Positions 6,540 through 64,000 of a DNA stretch of 64,000 nucleotides are shown here, piece after piece. Under the pieces are notes generated by a model. The model had not been told where the DNA came from. It searched no databases and was given only the letters and a program-made list of their open reading frames with translations. The position numbers were made by a program, and so were the translations under genes. The stretch is from an uncultured bacterium (GTDB taxonomy: Bacteria; Sysuimicrobiota; Sysuimicrobiia; Sysuimicrobiales; Sysuimicrobiaceae). The stretch covers positions 14,627-78,626 of the forward strand of contig CAYTFH010000002.1 in assembly GCA_964437095.1 (NCBI GenBank), in the 5' to 3' direction. Positions within the stretch are counted from its first letter, which is position 1. Every line of letters starts with the position of its first letter.

Positions 6540-7610
6540 ATGCAGGGCGAACCAAGGCCGTCTGCTTTGGACTGCTGCCACGAGCTGTCCCGCGAGGAGC
6601 GCGAGGTCTTGCCCCGACGGCGGTTCCTGGCTTGGTTGGTGGCCGCGGGCCTGGCGGGGTGGATGGGCGTGCTTCGGCCGGCCCGGGCGCAGGGCCGCCG
6701 GCGGGTCCGGCTGGGCTTCTGCGGGCAGCTGCTGTGCGTGGTGCCCTACGAGGTGGCGCGCCACCACGGGTACTTCGCGGAGCAAGGGCTGGACGTGGAG
6801 CTGGTGTACTTCCGGGGCGGGGCCGCGGCCATGCAGGCCCTGGTGGGCGGGGCCGTGGACTACGCGGCCACGTCCTTCGACGTGGCGCTGTCCGCCTACG
6901 CCCGGGGCGCGCGCATCGTGCGGTTCTTCACCACCGGGCGGCTGCCCCTGTTCGCCCTGGTCACGGCACCCGGACAAGCGGGCCGCATCCGGCAGCTGGC
7001 CGACCTCGCAGGGCGCACCGTGGGGATCTCGGGGCTGGGCAACGCGGACCACGTGCTGGCCGTGTACCTCGCGCGCCGGGCGGGTGTGGACCCCCAGCAA
7101 GTGCGGTTCGCGGTGCTGGGGCCGAGCCTGTACGACGCCCTGCGGTTGGGGCACGTGGACGCGGGCATGGTACAGGAACCTGCCCTCACCCTACTGGTCC
7201 GCGCAGGAGGCAGGGTGCTGGCCAACCTCATGGACCTCAAGCAAGCCGAGCGGTGGCTGGGTGGCCCCTACGAGTTCATGGGGGTGGCGGTGCGCCGGGA
7301 CGAGTGGCAGGCTCGGGAGCCCGAGATGCGCGCCCTCGCCCGGGCGCTGAGCCGCGCCCTGCGGCTGGTACACTACGGAACGCCCAAGCTGGTGGTGCAG
7401 GCCCTGCCGCCCGAGCTGGTGGCGGGCGGCGACCGCGGGCTGTTCGAGGAGGTCCTGGCGCGCCACCGCAGGTCCCTGTACCCGCAGTCGGGCCGCATCG
7501 ACCTGGCGGCGGTGCGGCGCGTGGCGGAGCTGCAGGAGCAGGCGGGCGTGCTCGCGAGGGCCGTGGATCCCACGGAGCTGGTGACCAACGCCATCGTGGA
7601 GGGGCTGTGA
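6540..7610 (+). CDS. ABC transporter substrate-binding protein, NitT/TauT (SsuA/ThiY/NMT1-like) family, Tat signal
   Basis: RRRFLAWLVAAGLAG twin-arginine signal and NMT1/SsuA-like fold motifs. ATG is 8 nt after GAGGAGG. Confidence 0.7.
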   Translation: MQGEPRPSALDCCHELSREEREVLPRRRFLAWLVAAGLAGWMGVLRPARAQGRRRVRLGFCGQLLCVVPYEVARHHGYFAEQGLDVELVYFRGGAAAMQALVGGAVDYAATSFDVALSAYARGARIVRFFTTGRLPLFALVTAPGQAGRIRQLADLAGRTVGISGLGNADHVLAVYLARRAGVDPQQVRFAVLGPSLYDALRLGHVDAGMVQEPALTLLVRAGGRVLANLMDLKQAERWLGGPYEFMGVAVRRDEWQAREPEMRALARALSRALRLVHYGTPKLVVQALPPELVAGGDRGLFEEVLARHRRSLYPQSGRIDLAAVRRVAELQEQAGVLARAVDPTELVTNAIVEGL

Positions 7611-12616: not shown

Positions 12617-12937
12617 GTGGCGGAGCGGACCTACCGGCGGGACGAGGTGCCGGTGTACGTGATCAGCGTGGCCGCGGAGCTGGCGGGGGTGCACCCCCGC
12701 ACCCTCCGGATCTACGAGGCCAAGGGGCTGATCCGGCCCGCCCGGCGGAAGCACATCCGGCTGTTCAGCGAGCGGGACGTGCAGCGGGTGCGGCTGATCC
12801 AGTACCTGACCCAGGAGGTGGGGCTGAACCTGGCGGGGGTGCGGCTGTTCCTGGAGATCCAGGAACGCCACGAGGAGGTGGCGCAGTGGTTGCTGGAGCT
12901 TTGCGACACCCAAACGGAAAGGAGGGAGCGGCGATGA
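12617..12937 (+). CDS. hspR: MerR-family heat-shock transcriptional repressor HspR-like
   Basis: [52 protein letters not shown] is a MerR HTH. The gene is first in the dnaK operon and an HAIR-like dyad lies upstream. Confidence 0.8.
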
Positions 12938-13386
12938 GCATCCTGCGGTGGGACCCCTTCGAGGAGCTGCGGGAGATGCAGCGGTCCTTGGACCGCCTGT
13001 TCGACGAGTTGTCGGGCCGGCGGCCGCTGCGGCGTCGGGAGGCGCGGGAGCCCGTGGTGTGGGAGCCCGCGGTGGAGGTGTACGAGACGGACCAGGAGGT
13101 GGTGGTCCGGGCGGAGCTGCCCGGCGTGGACCCTAAGAACGTGAACGTGACCGTGCAGGACAACACCGTGACCATCGAGGCGGAGGCCAAGGAGGAGCAG
13201 GAGGAGCGGGGTCGCACCTACCTGCGCCGGGAGCTGCGCTACGGCCAGTTCTGCCGGAGCCTGACGCTGCCCGCGGAGGTGCGGGCGGACGCGGCCAAGG
13301 CCACCTACCGCAACGGTGTGCTGGAGCTGCGCGTGCCCAAGAGCGAGCGCGCGAAGCCCAAGCAGGTGAAGGTGGAGGTGAGCTGA
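12934..13386 (+). CDS. Hsp20/alpha-crystallin family small heat shock protein
   Basis: [25 protein letters not shown]...[32 protein letters not shown]...LELRVPK. ATG overlaps the hspR stop (ATGA) and follows GGAGGGAG. Confidence 0.9.
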
Positions 13387-57920: not shown

Positions 57921-58592
57921 ATGGCCGCCCGCATCCTGGTGGTGGACGACGAGCGTCCTCTCGTGGAGTCCATCCGGTTCGCCCTGCAGCGGGAGGGCCA
58001 CGAGGTGCAGGAGGCCTTCGACGGGGTGCAGGCCCTGGAACTCGCCCGGACCGGTCGGTTCGACCTGGTGGTCCTGGACGTGATGCTCCCGGGCATGAGC
58101 GGCTTCGAGGTGTGCCGGGCGTTGCGGCAGGAGAGCGACGTCCCCATCCTGTTGCTCACGGCCCGGTCCCACGAGACCGACCGGGTGGTGGGGCTGGACC
58201 TGGGCGCGGACGACTACGTGACCAAACCCTTCTCCATGCGGGAGCTGATGGCCCGGGTGCGGGCGTCCTTGCGGCGGCGGGGGATGCAGCAGGCGGCGGT
58301 GCTGTCCGCGGGAGACCTGGTCCTGGACCCCGCGCGGCACGAGGTGCGTTGCGGCCCCCGGGTCGTGGTCCTGGCCCCGAAGGAGTACGAGCTCCTGTCG
58401 ATCCTCCTGCGGCACGCGGGCCGGGTGCTGACCCGGGACCAGCTGCTGGCACAGGTGTGGGGCTACGACTACACGGGGGACGAGCGCACCGTGGACGTGC
58501 ACGTCTCGTGGCTGCGCCGCAAGTTGCGGGAGGCGGGGTCCTCGGTGCGCATCGAGGCGGTGCGAGGGGTCGGCTACCGGCTGGAACCCTGA
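57921..58592 (+). CDS. OmpR/PhoB-family response regulator
   Basis: Receiver domain (VVDDE...[13 protein letters not shown]) and winged-helix C-terminus ([12 protein letters not shown]). Confidence 0.9.
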
Positions 58593-58624
58593 TTTGTCCG
58601 GGGGTGGAAGGAGGCCCGGTGCGC

Positions 58625-59896
58625 GGGTGGGTATGGTGGGCCCTGGCCGTGGCCGCGGGTACCGGCGCCGCGTGGACCACCGTGGTCGGGGACCGGTGGG
58701 CCGCGGTGGCGGCGTGGCTGGGCGTGGCCGCGGTGGTGTTGGCGGGATGGCAGGAGCGCAGCTCGCGCCGGGCCGTGCGGGCCCTGGCGGAGTACCTGCG
58801 CCGCGGAGGCCAAGCGCCGCCCGGTGAGGCCGGCGAGCTGGCGGCGGCGGTGGCCCCGCTGCTCCGGGAGCTTCGGCAAGCCCTCCAGCACAGCCAGGTC
58901 CGCGAGCAGCAACTCCAGCAGCTCTTGGACGCCGTGCCGTGGGGGGTGGTGCTGCTGGACCCGCGGGGCCGGGTGGTTTGGGTGAACGGGGCCGCGCAAA
59001 GCCTCCTGGGCGTGGACGCAGGACAAGCGAGGGACATGGCCGCGGTGGCGGTATTCCGGCGGCACGAGGTGGACGGGTTGCTTCAGGAGGCGGGGCGTAC
59101 GGGGGAAGCGGCGCGGGACCTGGAGCTCGGGGGCGTGCTGCACGTGCGGGCCCGACGGCTGCGGGACGGAGGCTTCCTGCTCCTGGTCCAGGACGTGACC
59201 CGGGAGCGCAGGGCGGAGGTGGTGCGGCGCGACTTCGTGGCCAACGTGTCCCACGAGCTGCGCACGCCCCTGGCTTCCCTGCGCGCCATGGCCGAGACCC
59301 TGCGGGACGGAGGGTTGGACGATCCGCAGCTGGCGGCCCGGTTCGTGGACCAGATCCTGCGCGAGGTGGACCGCATGACCCGGCTGGTGAACGACCTGCT
59401 GGACCTGTCCGCCCTGGAGGCGGGCGTGGTGCGGCTGCGCTGGGAGGAGCTGGACGCGGGACGCCTCCTGCAGACGGTGGCCGCTCGCTACGAACCGGCA
59501 GCGTCCCGCAAGGGCGTGAGCCTCCTGGTCCGGCCCGGGGAAGCGGTGGTGCGGGGCGACCGGGACCGGCTGGAACAGGCCCTGGGCAACTTCGTGGACA
59601 ACGCGGTGAAGTACACCCCGCCGGGCGGACGCGTGGAGCTGGCGGTGGAACTCCACGGAGAGGAAGTGCACCTGGTGGTCGACGACACGGGCCCCGGGAT
59701 CCCGCCCGAGCACCTGCCCCGGGTGTTCGAGCGGTTCTACCGCGCGGACCCTTCCCGAAGCCGCGCGGAAGGGGGGACGGGGCTGGGGCTCGCCATCGCC
59801 AAGCACGTCGCCCTGGCCCACGGCGGCCGTGTGGAGGCTTCCAACCGCCCCACCGGCGGAGCCCGGCTGTCCCTGGTGCTGCCCAAAGGCCGCTGA
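58625..59896 (+). CDS. sensor histidine kinase (PhoR-like: 2 TM, PAS, HisKA, HATPase)
   Basis: H-box [13 protein letters not shown] and N, G1, G2 boxes ([19 protein letters not shown]). GTG start after GGAAGGAGG. Confidence 0.85.
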
Positions 59897-60034: not shown

Positions 60035-60405
60035 ATGCGCTTCGTCCTCGTCTTGCTGGGCGGTGCTCTGGGAGCCCTGGCCCGTTACCTGGTGGACGAT
60101 GGATCCTGAGCCGCCCGGACACGGGCTTCCCCTTCGGCACCCTGGTGGTGAACCTGTCCGGCAGCTTCCTGCCGGGGCTCCTATCCGTGCTGACGGTGGA
60201 GCGGCTCCTGGTACCCGGGGAGTGGCGGATCTTACTCGGGGTGGGGTTCTTGGGCGCGTACACCACCTTCTCCACCTGGCAGTACGAGACCTTCCGATCG
60301 CTGGAGGCGGGGCAGTGGGCGGCGGGCCTGGTGAACCTGTTCGGGAGCGCGGTGGCCGGGCTCGCCGCCCTGGCCCTCGGTGTCCTGGTGGCACGGGCCT
60401 GGTGA
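60035..60405 (+). pseudogene. crcB: fluoride channel CrcB/Fluc, interrupted by a -1 frameshift (or a sequencing error)
   Basis: Frame A encodes MRFVLVLLGGALGALARYLVDDGS then a stop at 60107. The rest of CrcB (GFPFGTLVVNLSGSFLPGLL...GAYTTFSTWQYE) continues in the -1 frame to 60405. Restoring one T near 60098-60101 gives ARYLVDDWILSRPDTGFPFGTL, a normal CrcB spacing. Confidence 0.55.
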
Positions 60406-60750
60406 TCAGGGGGTCACGGGCCGGTGCCGGTACAGGATGACCCGGACGTTCTCCAGGGTCACCAGGCCCTCGCCGATCATGTCGTCCAGGACTGGGAGGA
60501 AGGCCTCGATGCGTTCGGCCTCGTCCGCGATCTCGATGACCACGGGCAGGTCCTCCGACAGCCGCAGCAGCTTGGCGGTGTGGATGCGGCTGCTGGCTCC
60601 GAACCCCATCAAGCCGCGGAGGACCGTGGCGCCCGCCAGACCCATCTGACGGGCGCGCAACACGATGGCTTCATACAGGGGCCGGTCGTGCCACCGGTCC
60701 GACTCGCCCACGTAGATCCGCAGGAGTAGACCTTCCTCGCTGAGCTTCAC
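60406..60750 (-). CDS. DUF190 (PII-like) protein, the family typically encoded next to crcB
   Basis: LLLRIYVGESDRWHDRPLYEAIVLRARQMGLAGATVLRGLMGFG signature. GTG start 4 nt after GGAGGGG. Confidence 0.75.
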   Translation of the reverse strand: MKLSEEGLLLRIYVGESDRWHDRPLYEAIVLRARQMGLAGATVLRGLMGFGASSRIHTAKLLRLSEDLPVVIEIADEAERIEAFLPVLDDMIGEGLVTLENVRVILYRHRPVTP

Positions 60751-60870: not shown

Positions 60871-61782
60871 TCATGTCGTCGACGTCAGCGGGACCAGCAG
60901 GACGGGGACCCTCACCACAGGCGTCAAGCGCGCCACCACGCTGCCGGCCCAGAAACTCTCCCAGGGGCCTCGGGCGTGGGTGGCCATGATCACCAAGTCC
61001 GGGTGCCGATCCGAAACCGCCGCGGCCAGCTGTTGGACCACGTCGCCGCGCCGCAGCTCCGCGTCCGCAGCGAGCCCTCGGCCGCGAAGGGAGGCCTGCA
61101 GGTCCTGCAGCTGCTTCCAGGCAGCGTCTGAAGCCAGGTCCAGCACAGCGCCGGCGGCCTGAGGGAGGAATACTGCGGCTGCGGCGTCCTCCGGAGAGAC
61201 GGTGGCAGGGGTGGGGATCACCGTGACGAGGTGCAGGCGTGCGCGGCAGGCCACCGCGATCTCCTCGGCCCACGGCAGGGCCGCGTGGGACTCCCCCTGG
61301 GGGTCCACGGGGACCAGGAGCAGCTGGATTCCTGGGCTCGGAGCGGCGGGGGCGGGGATCAGGAGGACGGGGCGGCCGCTGCGGACCAACACCTGCTGTG
61401 GGACATGCCCCAACAGGCGTGCCCTGAGGCCACCCCACCCGTGGGCTGCCAAGACCAGAATGTCCGCGTGAAGCGCCTCCGCTTGAGCCGCGATACACGC
61501 CGCCACGTCTGCCAGGGCGGCGGAGGCGACGTGCACCTCCACAGCCAGCCCCTCTCCCCGGATCCGAGCGGCGGCCTCCTGTAGGTAGCGCCACGCGGCG
61601 TCCGCGGTGCGTAGGTGCGGCTGCCCGTGGACGGTCTGGGGCGGGCGCGCCTCCAGGACGTGGAGGAGCGTGAGCCGGCCCCGGAGCGCCCGGGCCAGCT
61701 GGCACGCCACCGGCAGGCTGCTCTCCGAGAGCTGGGATCCGTCGAGGGCGACGACGAGATGACGGCCCGGATTCCCCGTCAC
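60871..61782 (-). CDS. universal stress protein (tandem UspA domains)
   Basis: HLVVALDGSQLSESSLPVACQLA...ILVLAAHGWGG and a second Usp repeat. GTG overlaps the mntH stop. Confidence 0.75.
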   Translation of the reverse strand: MTGNPGRHLVVALDGSQLSESSLPVACQLARALRGRLTLLHVLEARPPQTVHGQPHLRTADAAWRYLQEAAARIRGEGLAVEVHVASAALADVAACIAAQAEALHADILVLAAHGWGGLRARLLGHVPQQVLVRSGRPVLLIPAPAAPSPGIQLLLVPVDPQGESHAALPWAEEIAVACRARLHLVTVIPTPATVSPEDAAAAVFLPQAAGAVLDLASDAAWKQLQDLQASLRGRGLAADAELRRGDVVQQLAAAVSDRHPDLVIMATHARGPWESFWAGSVVARLTPVVRVPVLLVPLTSTT

Positions 61783-63128
61783 GACGGACCCCCCAGGAAG
61801 GTGCGCCACAGTAGGTACGCGTTGAGGGCCACCACGAGAGCCGTGACCGCCCAAGCGAGGGCGGACGTCAGCCGATGATTGGCCAGGTCCCCCATGAGGC
61901 GGCGGTCGCTGGTGAAGTGGATCAAGGGCACCAGGGCGAAGGGGAGCCCGAAGCTCAGCACCACCTGGCTCAGGACGAGGGTCCACGTGGGATCCAACCC
62001 TAGGGCGATGACGACCAGGGCCGGGGCCATAGTGACCACGCGCCGCAGCCACAGGGGGACGTGACGGCGCAGGTAGCCCTGTATGACCACCTGCCCCGCC
62101 ATGGTGCCCACCGTGGAAGAGGAGAGCCCCGATGCCAGGAGGGAGACGGCGAACATGCTCCCCGCCAGGTCACCCAGAAGCGGCTGCAGGGTCCGGTAGG
62201 CCTCCTCGATGCTTGCTACGTGCGATAGACCCGCGCGGTAGAAGGTGGAGGCTGCCATGACCACCATGGCGGCGTTGATGAGCCCGGCCACGCCCATCGC
62301 CAAAACCACGTCCACCAGCTCCAGTCGGAACAGCCGCTTCGCCTGCTCGGGTGTGAGGACCGGGATTCGGTGCTGCACGAGGGCCGAGTGGAGGAAGATC
62401 ACGTGGGGCATCACGGTGGCCCCCAGGATGCCGGCCGCGAGGAGCACGCTCTCGGCGTCCGAAAACCGGGGAGTGACGGCGGCGCGGGCCAGGGCACCCC
62501 AGTCCGGCCGCTCCAACACGGTCTCCACTACGTAGGCCACCGCGATGACCCCCACCAGGGCGCCGATCACCGCTTCCACGGGACGGTACCCGTACCGCTG
62601 AAGGGCGAGGATGCTAAAGGTCACCGCGGCCGTGAGGAAGCCTGCGGGGAGGAGCGGGATCCCGAACAGGAGGTGCAACCCTAAAGCCGCCCCGAGGAAC
62701 TCCGCCAAATCCGTGGCCATGGCCACGAGTTCCGAGACCGCCCACATGAACCACACCAACGGAACGGGCAGTCGGTCCCGGCAAACCTCGGCGAGGTTGG
62801 ACCCCGTGGCGATTCCGAGCTTGGCGGCAAGGGACTGAACCAGAATGGCGATGAGGTTACTGGCCAGCACCACCCACAGCAGCAGGTACCCATAGCGCGC
62901 ACCGCTCTGGATGTTCGTAGCGTAGTTCCCGGGATCCATGTAGGCCACGGAGGCGACGAAGGCGGGTCCGAGAAAAGGCCAGATCCGGGCCCACCAGGGG
63001 CCCCGCGGCCGCCCCGCGAGGACTTCCTGGGCGGCTCGCAACATGGCCGCGTCCGCGGAGCGCTCGCGGACTGCCGCGGGGGGCTCTTCGGCCGCGGAAT
63101 GCCCTGCGTTGACGGCTCCGTCCTCCAT
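61779..63128 (-). CDS. mntH: NRAMP family divalent metal (Mn2+/Fe2+) transporter MntH
   Basis: LGPAFVASVAYMDPGNYATNIQSGARYGY NRAMP signature (DPGN). Confidence 0.9.
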   Translation of the reverse strand: MEDGAVNAGHSAAEEPPAAVRERSADAAMLRAAQEVLAGRPRGPWWARIWPFLGPAFVASVAYMDPGNYATNIQSGARYGYLLLWVVLASNLIAILVQSLAAKLGIATGSNLAEVCRDRLPVPLVWFMWAVSELVAMATDLAEFLGAALGLHLLFGIPLLPAGFLTAAVTFSILALQRYGYRPVEAVIGALVGVIAVAYVVETVLERPDWGALARAAVTPRFSDAESVLLAAGILGATVMPHVIFLHSALVQHRIPVLTPEQAKRLFRLELVDVVLAMGVAGLINAAMVVMAASTFYRAGLSHVASIEEAYRTLQPLLGDLAGSMFAVSLLASGLSSSTVGTMAGQVVIQGYLRRHVPLWLRRVVTMAPALVVIALGLDPTWTLVLSQVVLSFGLPFALVPLIHFTSDRRLMGDLANHRLTSALAWAVTALVVALNAYLLWRTFLGGPS

Positions 63129-63209
63129 GGTCCGTGCGGGCGACGCAGGAGCGACGCCCCCTTCAGGATGCTACCACCCGGGAAGGGCGGGGGTCGCTGT
63201 GGGAGGGGC

Positions 63210-63241
63210 TTGACCTTCCGGTTTGCGGGAAGCTGTAGGTT
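63210..63241 (+). promoter_or_regulatory. MerR/CueR-type promoter upstream of the P1B-ATPase gene
   Basis: TTGACC-ttccggtttgcgggaagctg-TAGGTT has a 19/20-bp spacer containing a CCTTCC...GGGAAG dyad. Recalled as nearly the same layout as E. coli PcopA (TTGACCTTCC...GGAAGG). Confidence 0.5.
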
Positions 63242-63279
63242 GGGGCGGGAGAAAGAGAGAGGCGCGGAGGGGAGTCCCG

Positions 63280-64000
63280 GTGACTGCGGGGGCTGCCAAG
63301 CTCCTCGTGAAGCTCGGAGGCATGCACTGCTCTTTGTGCGTGGAGTCGGCGCGCAAGGCGGTTCGCAGGCTCCCCGGCGTTCGGTCTGTTCACGTGTCCA
63401 TCGCCCACAGCGAAGCCCTGGTGGAATACGACCCGGCGCGCGTGAGCCCTGAGGCCATCTCCGAGGCTCTCCGAGCCGTGGGCTTCCCGGTCCTGCCCCC
63501 CGACGAGGCCGGGCGCCTTGCGGAGGAGGAACGGGAGCTGCGCCGGGCGCGGGGGCTGGCGTGGCTGGGGGGCGCCCTGATGGCCGCCGCCACGGCCCTG
63601 ATGGGCGCGAGCGCCCTGTGGGGGCTCAGCAGGGCGCGGGCGCTGGTGCTGGGGGCTTTGGCCCTGGGGACGGCTGTGGGGCCCGCGGCGTGGGTCCTGC
63701 GCAACGCCTGGCAGTCCGTGCGCCGGGGCATCCTCAACCAGGACGTGCTGGCGGCCGCCTCGGCCCTGGCGGGTCTTGGGGGCGGCATCGTAGGGCTGTG
63801 GTCCCCCCGCCTTCCCCGCCGGAGAGTTCTTCGCCGCCGCGGTGTTCGTGTTCGGCTTCCACCTCGTGGGCGGCTACCTTTCGGTGCTGGTGCACGTACG
63901 CGCTTCCCAGTCGGTCCGCAAGCTGCTGAGCTTGGCCCCGGCCACCGCATGGAGGGTGCTGCCGGACGGGTCGGAGGAGGAAGTCCCGGTGGGGGGGCTG
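63280..64000 (+). CDS. copA: heavy-metal (copper-type) P1B-ATPase, partial, with apparent +1 frameshift in a C6 run
   Basis: N-terminal HMA domain (GMHCSLCVESARKAV). The P-type ATPase TM region shifts frame at CCCCCC (63804-63809). Deleting one C gives LWSPAFPAGEFFAAAVFVFGFHLVGGYLSVLVHVRASQSVRKLL. GTG start after GGAGGGGAG. Confidence 0.65.
   Translation, partial: MTAGAAKLLVKLGGMHCSLCVESARKAVRRLPGVRSVHVSIAHSEALVEYDPARVSPEAISEALRAVGFPVLPPDEAGRLAEEERELRRARGLAWLGGALMAAATALMGASALWGLSRARALVLGALALGTAVGPAAWVLRNAWQSVRRGILNQDVLAAASALAGLGGGIVGLWSPRLPRRRVLRRRGVRVRLPPRGRLPFGAGARTRFPVGPQAAELGPGHRMEGAAGRVGGGSPGGGA

What the first reader, a model, noticed from the sequence alone, without database searches (positions are those of the whole stretch)
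63129..64000. P1B-type metal ATPase with a frameshift in a C6 run and a CueR-like MerR promoter, but no MerR regulator in view
The upstream region TTGACC-N20-TAGGTT has the 19-20 bp spacer typical of MerR-activated promoters and a CCTTCC...GGGAAG dyad, recalled as laid out much like E. coli PcopA. Copper control in Firmicutes-like genomes is usually by CsoR or CopY, so a CueR-type site would be unexpected. The nearest MerR-family protein in the window is HspR, which has different half-sites. The ORF (HMA domain GMHCSLC) shifts frame at CCCCCC (63804-63809). Removing one C restores FPAGEFFAAAVFVFGFHLVGG, so this is a likely homopolymer error or phase-variable tract. The adjacent divergent mntH-usp-DUF190 operon makes this a metal-homeostasis island.
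Basis: partly seen in the sequence, partly recalled or inferred. Interest (0 to 1): 0.5.

Follow-up and report, generated by a model that had tools for sequence, protein, structure and literature searches.

The report
MerR-regulated metal pump operon, frameshifted
This is an ordinary metal-inducible export-pump operon whose MerR-type regulator gene lies just beyond the window's end, and in this strain one extra C breaks the pump gene.

Summary
TTGACC (63210-63215), a 20-nt spacer and TAGGTT (63236-63241) enclose a CTTCC-N8-GGAAG dyad. The site is unique in the window, with 0 expected by chance.

The "missing regulator" is a window-edge effect. Public contigs identical to the window extend it, and a 143-aa MerR-family metal-sensor gene starts 4 nt after the ATPase stop, about 1.5 kb past base 64000.

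In 24 related genomes the same promoter precedes this ATPase, a small HMA (heavy-metal-binding) gene or the merR. Its consensus is TTGACCTTCCAG-N4-CTGGAAGGTgTAnnnT. This matches the rhizobial actP-hmrR and E. coli CueR/PcopA design, with one extra central base pair.

The frameshift is probably real. C6 appears in the deposited contig and in two separately assembled runs, while three roughly 95%-identical sister strains have C5 and an intact 734-aa gene. No other frame break occurs in 73 kb.

The genome's relatives are hot-spring Ca. Sysuimicrobiota, not Firmicutes. The pump and sensor belong to a widespread, apparently uncharacterised subfamily: YPC replaces CPC in the pump, and the sensor's cysteine pattern is unusual. 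The metal is unresolved; Cu(I)/Ag(I) is favoured.

The parts
63210..63215 (+). -35 hexamer TTGACC of the MerR-type promoter
   Evidence: Sequence. TTGAC is invariant in 27 related sites, though those columns were part of the search pattern. The flanking C at -1 was not selected for and is conserved in 24 of 27 sites.
63213..63234 (.). 22-bp imperfect palindrome ACCTTCCGGTT|TGCGGGAAGCT. It is the predicted operator of the downstream MerR-family regulator and lies inside the 20-nt spacer.
   Evidence: Same register as the family consensus ACCTTCCAG-N4-CTGGAAGGT. It deviates at three conserved positions: 63220 G for A, 63227 G for T and 63233 C for G. Unique in the window. Conserved in sister strains L003 and L085, which keep A at the first of these positions.
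63236..63241 (+). -10 hexamer TAGGTT (TAnnnT), 20 nt after the -35 hexamer
   Evidence: Sequence. In 27 of 27 related sites the last position of the hexamer is T, although that column was not part of the search pattern.
63266..63270 (+). Shine-Dalgarno-like GGAGG, 9 nt before the GTG start
   Evidence: Sequence. This is an inference from position only.
63280..63808 (+). 5' part of the P1B ATPase gene in its original frame. It encodes the HMA domain (GMHCSLC) and the first three hydrophobic helices (MA, MB, M1).
   Evidence: Translation; Pfam HMA hit; hydropathy profile. It is 98% identical to residues 1-179 of the repaired protein and collinear with the intact orthologue P0001.
63803..63808 (+). 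C6 run holding a 1-nt insertion relative to C5 in sister strains. This is the frameshift site, at codons 175-176 in the M1-M2 loop.
   Evidence: Window, L001 and L002 have C6. L003, L085 and L087 have C5 and intact genes. A GC-phase HMM puts the only stop-less frame switch in 73 kb at 63812.
63809..64000 (+). Continuation of the ATPase in the +1 frame, from M2 onwards. It is cut by the window end and runs to a TGA at 65483-65485 on the extending contig. The merR gene follows at 65489-65920.
   Evidence: Translation; extension by L001 and L002, which are identical to the window from 59242 onward; gene calls and Pfam assignments.

Best explanation
The region is the promoter and 5' end of a two-gene, self-regulated metal-resistance operon: a P1B heavy-metal export ATPase followed by its own MerR-family metal sensor.

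Proposed mechanism, inferred from the well-studied MerR family:
- The sensor dimer sits on the 22-bp palindrome between the -35 and -10 elements.
- The 20-nt spacer is too long for efficient open-complex formation.
- Metal binding makes the dimer untwist and kink the DNA, which realigns the two hexamers and switches on transcription of the pump and of the sensor itself.

The layout matches rhizobial actP-hmrR and E. coli CueR/PcopA, with one extra base pair at the centre of the dyad. The most likely inducer and substrate is Cu(I)/Ag(I), but that point is not established.

In this genome the pump gene carries a recent 1-nt insertion (C5 to C6) in the M1-M2 loop. The locus would therefore make a 256-aa truncated product (HMA domain plus three helices plus out-of-frame tail) and no functional pump. 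merR stays intact.
For: Shown:
- Contigs identical to the window from 59242 onward continue the ATPase to 65485. A 143-aa gene with MerR, MerR_1 and MerR-DNA-bind domains starts 4 nt later, and a terminator-like hairpin follows its stop.
- Among 80 genomes carrying this ATPase subfamily, 45 have a homologue of this MerR within 4 kb. It occurs downstream, upstream on the same strand, or divergent.
- 28 sites in 24 loci match TTGACCTTCCAG-N4-CTGGAAGGTnTA. Each lies 1-101 nt upstream of the first ORF of at least 55 aa: the ATPase in 14 cases, a small HMA gene in 4, merR in 5, and other ORFs in 5.
- Two columns outside the search pattern are conserved: C at -1 in 24 of 27 sites and the final T of the -10 hexamer in 27 of 27.
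- The window site is in the same register and is unique (30.1 bits against 3.7 for the next best).
- The repaired ATPase passes TIGR01525 and TIGR01511, has eight hydrophobic helices and has the TGE, DKTGT, HP and GDGINDAP motifs.
- It is nearer to solved Cu(I) pumps (405-430 bits) than to ZntA (282 bits).
- C6 is present in the window and in two run-level assemblies. C5 is present in three sister strains with intact 734-aa genes.
- The break is the only one in 73 kb that holds 47 G/C runs of 6 or more.
- dN/dS against the intact orthologue is 0.27.

From the literature:
[quoted passage not shown] ZntR uses a 22-bp palindrome in a 20-bp spacer (PMC1526738).
Against: - Nothing here is experimental. 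Binding, induction and the transcription start are all inferred.
- The window's operator is weaker than its relatives (30 bits against 42-59) and differs from the consensus at three conserved positions, so regulation may be impaired.
- The sensor does not reach any NCBIfam equivalog cut-off. Its best match is ZntR at 93 bits against a cut-off of 143; CueR scores 67 against 147.
- The sensor has Cys where Cu(I)-specific CueR has Ser77, and it lacks the Cys at the end of the dimerisation helix. Its metal is therefore uncertain.
- The pump has YPC, FN and MxxSV where Cu(I) pumps have CPC, YN and MxxSS.
- The two assemblies with C6 may derive from related samples, and I could not inspect reads.
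Confidence: 0.8

Rival explanations
1. The extra C is a sequencing or assembly artefact, and the pump gene is intact in the organism.
For: The change is a single-base length difference in a homopolymer. After removing one C the gene is perfect, with all catalytic motifs present. It has evolved under purifying selection (dN/dS 0.27). The deposited MAG and the Logan contigs may share read sets from one project.
Against: C6 is found in the deposited 218.7-kb contig and in two contigs assembled separately from two runs. Other runs of the same series (SRR11582144 and SRR11582170) give C5 in a roughly 95%-identical strain, so the pipeline does not systematically miscall this tract. None of the other 46 G/C runs of 6 or more in 73 kb breaks a frame.
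Confidence: 0.12
2. The C tract is a deliberate switch. Either reversible slippage turns the pump on and off (phase variation), or ribosomes shift +1 at CCC-C to make the full-length pump.
For: Both tract lengths, C5 and C6, exist in closely related populations. This is an inference from the sequence and from general knowledge that CCC-C is prone to +1 shifts.
Against: The frameshifted state is not conserved. All relatives examined, at 60-95% identity, are in frame. Six C's is short for a contingency tract, and such runs are common here: 47 of length 6 or more and 298 of length 5 or more. The next zero-frame codon, CGC, is not a stop codon, and no stimulatory element was found, although none was specifically searched for.
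Confidence: 0.07
3. The system senses and exports a divalent thiophilic metal (Zn, Cd, Pb or Hg) rather than Cu(I)/Ag(I).
For: - The sensor scores best against the ZntR, MerR and CadR/PbrR models (93, 78 and 74 bits) and against solved MerR, CadR and PbrR, all ahead of CueR.
- It has Cys at the position of MerR C79/CadR C77 in every adjacent family member.
- An S77C change lets CueR and GolS also sense +2 ions (PMC9733647).
- The 22-bp palindrome in a 20-nt spacer is the ZntR geometry (PMC1526738).
- The pump lacks the first Cys of the CPC motif.
Against: - The pump is much closer to Cu(I) pumps than to ZntA or CadA (405-430 against 282 and 245 bits).
- It lacks the TM5 Lys and TM6 Asp that I recall as typical of Zn pumps, while keeping the Asn, Met and Ser of the Cu site.
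- The operator arms ACCTTCCAG are those of HmrR/CueR.
- Small cytosolic CopZ-like HMA genes sit in the operon in several relatives.
- A YPC-type pump is reported to affect copper handling (PMC11082258, PMC4541151). Its homology to this family was not checked.
Confidence: 0.35
4. The dyad and the long spacer are fortuitous, and the gene is driven by an ordinary or unknown promoter.
For: The site departs from the family consensus at three conserved positions. The standard sigma-70 scan finds nothing in the region, but that scan only allows 16-18-nt spacers.
Against: Zero matches are expected by chance. The same element sits in the same register upstream of orthologous operons in 24 other genomes. 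The cognate regulator is encoded in the operon.
Confidence: 0.03

Closest known systems
actP-hmrR copper-resistance operon of Rhizobium/Sinorhizobium (HmrR, a CueR orthologue)
   Same: A P1B ATPase comes first and its MerR-family regulator is the second gene of the same operon. The promoter has a palindrome between the -35 and -10 elements with arms ACCTTCCAG...CTGGAAGG (PMC1526738).
   Different: - HmrR sites have 3 central bases and a 19-bp spacer; here there are 4 central bases and a 20-nt spacer.
- The regulator here has Cys at the Ser77 position and lacks the Cys at the end of the dimerisation helix.
- The pump has YPC rather than CPC.
E. coli CueR acting on PcopA
   Same: TTGACC as the -35 hexamer, CCTTCC/GGAAGG arms and a -10 hexamer of the TAnnnT type. 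The presumed mechanism is activation by DNA distortion (PMC9004249).
   Different: - PcopA has CCTTCC-N7-GGAAGG in a 19-nt spacer, whereas the window has N8 in a 20-nt spacer.
- The regulator here scores 67.3 bits on the CueR model TIGR02044, far below its cut-off of 147.4.
- The metal loop is C-x-C rather than C-x7-C.
- In E. coli cueR is not co-transcribed with copA.
E. coli ZntR acting on PzntA
   Same: A 22-bp palindrome inside a 20-bp spacer. Cys at position 79. The C-terminal CSILE matches ZntR's, as I recall the sequence. ZntR gives the best NCBIfam score.
   Different: - The arms differ: ACTCTGGAGT against ACCTTCCAGT.
- The score of 93 bits is below the 143-bit cut-off.
- The ZntR residues C114, C115 and H119 are absent.
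- The pump is not ZntA-like (282 bits against 405-430 for Cu pumps).
P1B-1 Cu(I) ATPases (CopA of A. fulgidus and L. pneumophila, ATP7B)
   Same: Eight-helix topology, an N-terminal HMA domain with CxxC, and all catalytic motifs. These are the highest sequence matches among solved structures. The protein passes the subfamily model TIGR01511.
   Different: Three of the six classical transmembrane metal-site residues are replaced, and the replacements are conserved: CPC to YPC, YN to FN and MxxSS to MxxSV, in 120 of 121 close homologues.

Membership tests
MerR-type metal-activated promoter | -35 and -10 hexamers separated by 19-20 bp instead of 17 bp | tested here: met
   TTGACC-N20-TAGGTT. The same 20-nt spacing holds in 27 related sites, with the final T of the -10 hexamer invariant.
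MerR-type metal-activated promoter | Palindromic operator centred within the spacer | tested here: met
   A 22-bp imperfect palindrome lies at 63213-63234. The family consensus ACCTTCCAG-N4-CTGGAAGGT is a near-perfect palindrome.
MerR-type metal-activated promoter | Cognate MerR-family regulator encoded at the locus | tested here: met
   A 143-aa MerR gene starts 4 nt after the ATPase stop on the extending contigs. A homologue is present near 45 of 80 related loci.
MerR-type metal-activated promoter | Metal-dependent activation through DNA distortion | not testable with these tools
   Needs in vitro transcription, footprinting or reporter assays.
Metal-sensing MerR subfamily (MerR/ZntR/CadR/CueR group) | N-terminal winged helix-turn-helix, a long dimerisation helix (PF09278) and a C-terminal Cys-containing metal loop | tested here: met
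   PF13411, PF00376 and PF09278 hits. The protein aligns end to end with solved MerR, CadR, PbrR and CueR. It has three Cys, at the 'C79' position and in a C-terminal CVC.
CueR/HmrR (Cu(I) sensors) | Score at or above the curated cut-off of TIGR02044 | tested here: not met
   67.3 bits against a cut-off of 147.4.
CueR/HmrR (Cu(I) sensors) | Ser at position 77, which excludes +2 ions | tested here: not met
   Cys (GRAPCEHV) aligns with MerR C79 and CadR C77 and is conserved in every adjacent family member. The rule comes from Ibanez et al. 2015, as cited in PMC9733647.
CueR/HmrR (Cu(I) sensors) | Two loop cysteines, C112 and C120 (C-x7-C), at the end of the dimerisation helix | tested here: not met
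   The position of CadR C112 is Ala here. The last Cys aligns with CadR C119/CueR C120. A second Cys two residues earlier (CVC) is present in only about half of the family.
CueR/HmrR (Cu(I) sensors) | Operator ACCTTCC...GGAAGGT in a 19-bp spacer | tested here: inconclusive
   The arms match, but the centre is 1 bp longer and the spacer is 20 nt.
ZntR | Score at or above the curated cut-off (TIGR02043 or NF007069) and the C114/C115/H119/C124 ligand set | tested here: not met
   87.5 bits against 167.95 and 93 bits against 143. Only the last Cys of the ligand set is retained.
P1B heavy-metal ATPase | E1-E2 ATPase and HAD domains, the DKTGT phosphorylation site, a Pro-containing TM4 motif, and TIGR01525 at or above its cut-off | tested here: met
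   After removal of one C, TIGR01525 scores 526.6 bits against a cut-off of 346.25. Pfam domains are present. DKTGT, TGE, HP and GDGINDAP are present. As the sequence stands, the gene is split by the frameshift.
P1B-1 (Cu(I)/Ag(I)) ATPase | Transmembrane signature: CPC in TM4, YN in TM5 and MxxSS in TM6 | tested here: not met
   YPC, FN and MxxSV are found instead. They are conserved in 120 of 121 close homologues. Overall similarity is nevertheless highest to Cu(I) pumps, and TIGR01511 is passed at 424.3 bits against a cut-off of 397.
Programmed +1 ribosomal frameshift site | The shifted arrangement is conserved among orthologues | tested here: not met
   Orthologues at 60-95% identity are all in frame. 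Sister strains have C5.

The most novel reading that the evidence does not exclude
The pump and sensor define a widespread but uncharacterised pair. More than 570 loci were found among species-representative genomes of Chloroflexota, Ca. Sysuimicrobiota/Armatimonadota, Deinococcota, Actinomycetota and some haloarchaea.

- The pump is a CopA-derived P1B clade with a fixed alternative transmembrane site (YPC, FN, MxxSV) and a GMHCSLC HMA domain.
- The sensor is a MerR subfamily that keeps the 'Cys79' ligand and the last loop Cys but has lost the Cys at the end of the dimerisation helix.
- The sensor reads HmrR-type half-sites on a ZntR-type 22-bp, 20-nt-spacer frame.

If the changed ligand sets reflect a different metal or a different coordination or stoichiometry from classical Cu(I) systems, this would be a new P1B/MerR specificity class.
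Probability: 0.3. Interest if true: 0.5.

Novelty: new variant of a known kind. Interest (0 to 1): 0.3.

Why it matters
For this window, the result mainly removes a false puzzle. The regulator exists, the promoter is the expected one, and the operon follows a textbook design.

Two modest points remain of interest.

1. The strain carries a very recent natural knockout of the pump, and in the same lineage the operator has one extra change from the consensus. Intact sister alleles are available for comparison, so this is a natural experiment on whether the pump is dispensable in that hot-spring population.

2. The pump and sensor subfamily is common in thermophilic and soil phyla. Its metal-ligand residues differ consistently from those of the characterised Cu, Zn, Cd and Hg systems. 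Annotation pipelines call it only 'heavy metal ATPase / MerR family', and determining its metal would improve annotation of hundreds of genomes.

Tried and rejected
- Sigma-70 consensus scan of 62900-63500: no hits, as expected, because it only allows 16-18-nt spacers.
- Rfam search over the whole window: no matches. There is therefore no Mn riboswitch upstream of mntH and no fluoride riboswitch near crcB. The tRNA scan found none.
- Search for further operator copies in the 73-kb extended window, to look for additional regulon members: none above 3.7 bits.
- Test of whether the downstream YHS, cupredoxin, SfLAP and SHOCT genes travel with this operon in other genomes: no homologues in the 80 related loci, so they give no conserved clue to the metal.
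- Literature searches for a description of a 'YPC' P1B subgroup found only passing mentions. One is a synthetic metagenomic CopAL6, which lowered Cu resistance and raised Cu accumulation in E. coli ΔcopA (PMC11082258). The other is a statement that a S. solfataricus Cu ATPase uses YPC (PMC4541151). A third paper reports CPCALGLA in S. metallicus CopA1 and CopA2, one pair of which is about 90% identical to the S. solfataricus orthologues (PMC3595675). Homology of any of these to the present family was not established.
- The Smith et al. 2014 classification paper was not in the library.
- Programmed frameshifting and phase variation were considered and rated low, because the shifted state is not conserved and the tract is ordinary.
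Full report
**1. What is in the sequence.** Between the divergent mntH gene (61779-63128, minus strand) and an ORF starting at GTG 63280 lies a 151-nt intergenic region. It contains TTGACC (63210-63215), a 20-nt spacer and TAGGTT (63236-63241). Inside the spacer, CTTCC (63215-63219) and GGAAG (63228-63232) form a dyad 8 nt apart. This dyad is the core of the 22-bp imperfect palindrome ACCTTCCGGTT|TGCGGGAAGCT (63213-63234). The composite pattern occurs once in the window, with 0.00 expected in 100 shuffles. GGAGG (63266-63270) lies 9 nt before the GTG.

The ORF encodes an HMA domain with GMHCSLC. At a run of six C the coding frame moves to +1.

**2. Extending the window.** An exact look-up of the MntH protein found two Logan contigs, from SRR11582145 and SRR11582148. 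They are identical to the window from base 59242 to its end and continue about 9 kb further. On them the ATPase runs to a TGA at extended coordinate 65483-65485.

A 143-aa gene starts 4 nt later (65489-65920), preceded by its own GGAGG. It carries the MerR, MerR_1 and MerR-DNA-bind Pfam domains. A weak terminator-like hairpin follows it. Next come lnt, a PALP-family enzyme gene, and genes for a YHS/TRASH membrane protein and a cupredoxin-like protein.

Within the window the only other MerR-like gene is the hspR-like ORF at 12617-12937, next to an hsp20-like ORF.

**3. The frameshift.** Removing one C gives a 734-aa protein with eight hydrophobic helices. It has TGE, DKTGT, HP and GDGINDAP. It scores above the cut-offs of TIGR01525 and TIGR01511.

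- A 95%-identical protein of exactly 734 aa exists (P0001). Its contig L003 (SRR11582170) has C5 at the site.
- Two further sister contigs, L085 (SRR12999147, same gene order) and L087 (SRR11582144), also have C5 and intact genes.
- C6 is found in the window, in L001 and in L002, and the deposited 218.7-kb NCBI contig carries the resulting 547-aa truncated gene call (P0002).

To gauge assembly quality I segmented the 73-kb extended sequence with a six-frame GC-phase HMM. Among about 65 coding segments, the only frame switch with no stop codon nearby is at 63812. The sequence holds 47 G/C runs of 6 or more and 298 of 5 or more. dN/dS between the repaired gene and L003 is 0.27.

The simplest reading is a real and recent 1-nt insertion in this lineage. 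It lies at codons 175-176, in the loop between the third and fourth helices (M1-M2). It leaves a 256-aa product with an out-of-frame tail. It also leaves a 547-aa remnant that would have to start inside M2 without a visible ribosome-binding site. A reproducible artefact cannot be excluded without reads. Programmed frameshifting or phase variation has no support, because all relatives are in frame and the tract is ordinary.

**4. Is the promoter meaningful?** A scan of 185,579 species-representative genomes with an alignment of the closest ATPases returned more than 570 confirmed loci, and the best 80 were kept.

- 45 of the 80 loci have a homologue of the window's MerR within 4 kb. It lies downstream, upstream on the same strand, or divergent.
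- A search for the window's element found 28 sites in 24 loci that fit TTGACCTTCCAG-N4-CTGGAAGGTnTA with at most 3 mismatches.
- Each site lies 1-101 nt upstream of the first ORF of at least 55 aa: the ATPase in 14 cases, a small CopZ-like HMA gene that precedes the ATPase in 4, merR in 5, and other ORFs in 5.
- Two columns outside the search pattern are also conserved: C before the -35 hexamer in 24 of 27 sites and the last T of the -10 hexamer in 27 of 27. This fixes the architecture as -35 TTGACC, a 20-nt spacer and -10 TAnnnT.

The window site has the same register and scores 30.1 bits, against 3.7 for the next best position in 146 kb of searched strand. Family sites score 42-59 bits, and the window site departs at three conserved positions (63220, 63227, 63233). 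The sister strains L003 and L085 keep the consensus A at the first of these positions. The lineage with the broken pump therefore also has one extra operator change. The dyad is not fortuitous.

**5. Comparison with known systems.**
- E. coli PcopA is TTGACCTTCCCCTTGCTGGAAGGTTTA (PMC9004249). It has the same hexamer and arms, but an N7 centre and a 19-nt spacer.
- Permina et al. 2006 (PMC1526738) give the HmrR signal as ACCTTCCAG-(3)-CTGGAAGG in a 19-bp spacer. [quoted passage not shown] The present family therefore has HmrR-type arms and the actP-hmrR gene order on a ZntR-type frame. The mechanism I propose is the family's established one: an over-long spacer corrected by metal-induced DNA distortion. 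It is inferred here, not shown.

**6. Which metal?** The evidence is mixed.

*The pump.* It is closest to solved Cu(I) pumps: ATP7B 430 bits, A. fulgidus CopA 416 and L. pneumophila CopA 405. ZntA scores 282 and a Cd pump 245. Its transmembrane signature is YPC, xFN and MxxSV instead of CPC, YN and MxxSS. That signature is conserved in 120 of 121 close homologues, as is GMHCSLC in 114 of them.

*The sensor.* It reaches no NCBIfam equivalog cut-off (ZntR 93, MerR 78, CadR/PbrR 74, CueR 67 bits). It aligns best with Bacillus MerR, then CadR and PbrR. It has Cys at the position of MerR C79 and CueR Ser77, conserved in every adjacent family member. It has Ala where CadR C112 sits, and a final Cys equivalent to CadR C119. 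A second Cys two residues earlier (CVC) is present in about half the family. In CueR and GolS an S77C change adds a response to +2 ions without removing the +1 response (PMC9733647).

I favour Cu(I)/Ag(I) at about 0.5. The reasons are the pump's affinities, the operator arms and the CopZ-like partners. A divalent thiophilic metal remains a serious rival at about 0.35.

**7. Taxonomy and context.** The nearest loci (73% identity) belong to Ca. Calidihabitans tengchongensis and Ca. Tepidifontimicrobium thermophilum, of the phylum Ca. Sysuimicrobiota. Older protein records for the same clade say Armatimonadota. An lnt gene lies downstream in those genomes too.

The 'metal island' idea is only loosely supported. 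mntH and usp are adjacent and divergent, but DUF190 sits tail-to-tail with crcB. The downstream YHS and cupredoxin genes do not accompany this operon in other genomes.

**8. Verdict.** This is a correct observation of a standard MerR-activated pump operon. Its apparent anomaly disappears once the sequence is extended. The frameshift is most likely a genuine, recent inactivating insertion. The residual novelty lies in the uncharacterised pump and sensor subfamily, not in the features that prompted the finding.

Noticed in passing
window 12617-12937 (+) and about 12940-13386 (+): An hspR-like MerR-family gene (106 aa) is followed directly by an Hsp20/alpha-crystallin-like ORF. It is the only other MerR-like gene in the window (37.6% identity to the metal sensor over 85 aa).
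   Followed up: partly
window 60145-60405 (+) and 60406-60750 (-): A crcB (fluoride channel) gene and a DUF190 gene lie tail-to-tail. DUF190 is thus adjacent to a fluoride-channel gene as well as to the mntH-usp metal cluster. Rfam finds no fluoride riboswitch, and indeed no RNA family anywhere in the window.
   Followed up: partly
window 59242: Both independent Logan contigs (L001, L002) end at exactly this base, inside the histidine-kinase gene of a two-component pair (57921-59896). This suggests a strain-variable or repeated segment that breaks short-read assemblies.
   Followed up: no
window 63168-63176 (minus strand): TGGTAGCAT reads as an extended -10 element (TGnTAnnnT) about 40 nt upstream of the mntH start. 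It is a candidate mntH promoter sharing the intergenic region with the MerR-type promoter. This rests on sequence inspection only.
   Followed up: no
window 63220 compared with L003:241 and L085:3733: The lineage with the frameshifted pump also carries a derived A-to-G change at an operator position that is A in 26 of 27 family sites. The intact sister strains keep A. This may be early decay of the whole locus, or coincidence.
   Followed up: partly
beyond the window, extended coordinates 66029-72651 (L001:361-6983): Downstream of merR lie lnt, a PALP enzyme gene, a 154-aa unknown, a membrane protein with a C-terminal YHS/TRASH motif, a cupredoxin-like protein whose site reads CDVCCGG...M, an SfLAP-family membrane protein and a Gly/Met/Trp-rich SHOCT protein. 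None is conserved next to this operon in the 80 related loci.
   Followed up: partly
L014 (sites at 2920, 3821, 9317; weaker at 7011) and L039 (2388, 6760): Some relatives carry three or four copies of the operator. These include copies upstream of a thioredoxin-like gene and of genes with no obvious metal link, so the regulon is larger in those genomes.
   Followed up: partly
L064:1682, L081:610, L082:3798: More distant members of the YPC ATPase family keep the TTGACC/20-nt/TAnnnT frame but have different palindrome arms (CTTAAACTATAGTTGAAG, CTTGGACTTGGCTCCAAG). This suggests operator and regulator co-divergence within one promoter scaffold.
   Followed up: no
L010, L013, P0014 and other 830-845-aa homologues: Many family members carry a second, N-terminal HMA domain with an IHCAGCEQRI-type motif. 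In other genomes (L009, L015, L017, L029) the same domain is a separate small gene between the operator and the ATPase. This is a gene fusion or fission within the operon.
   Followed up: no
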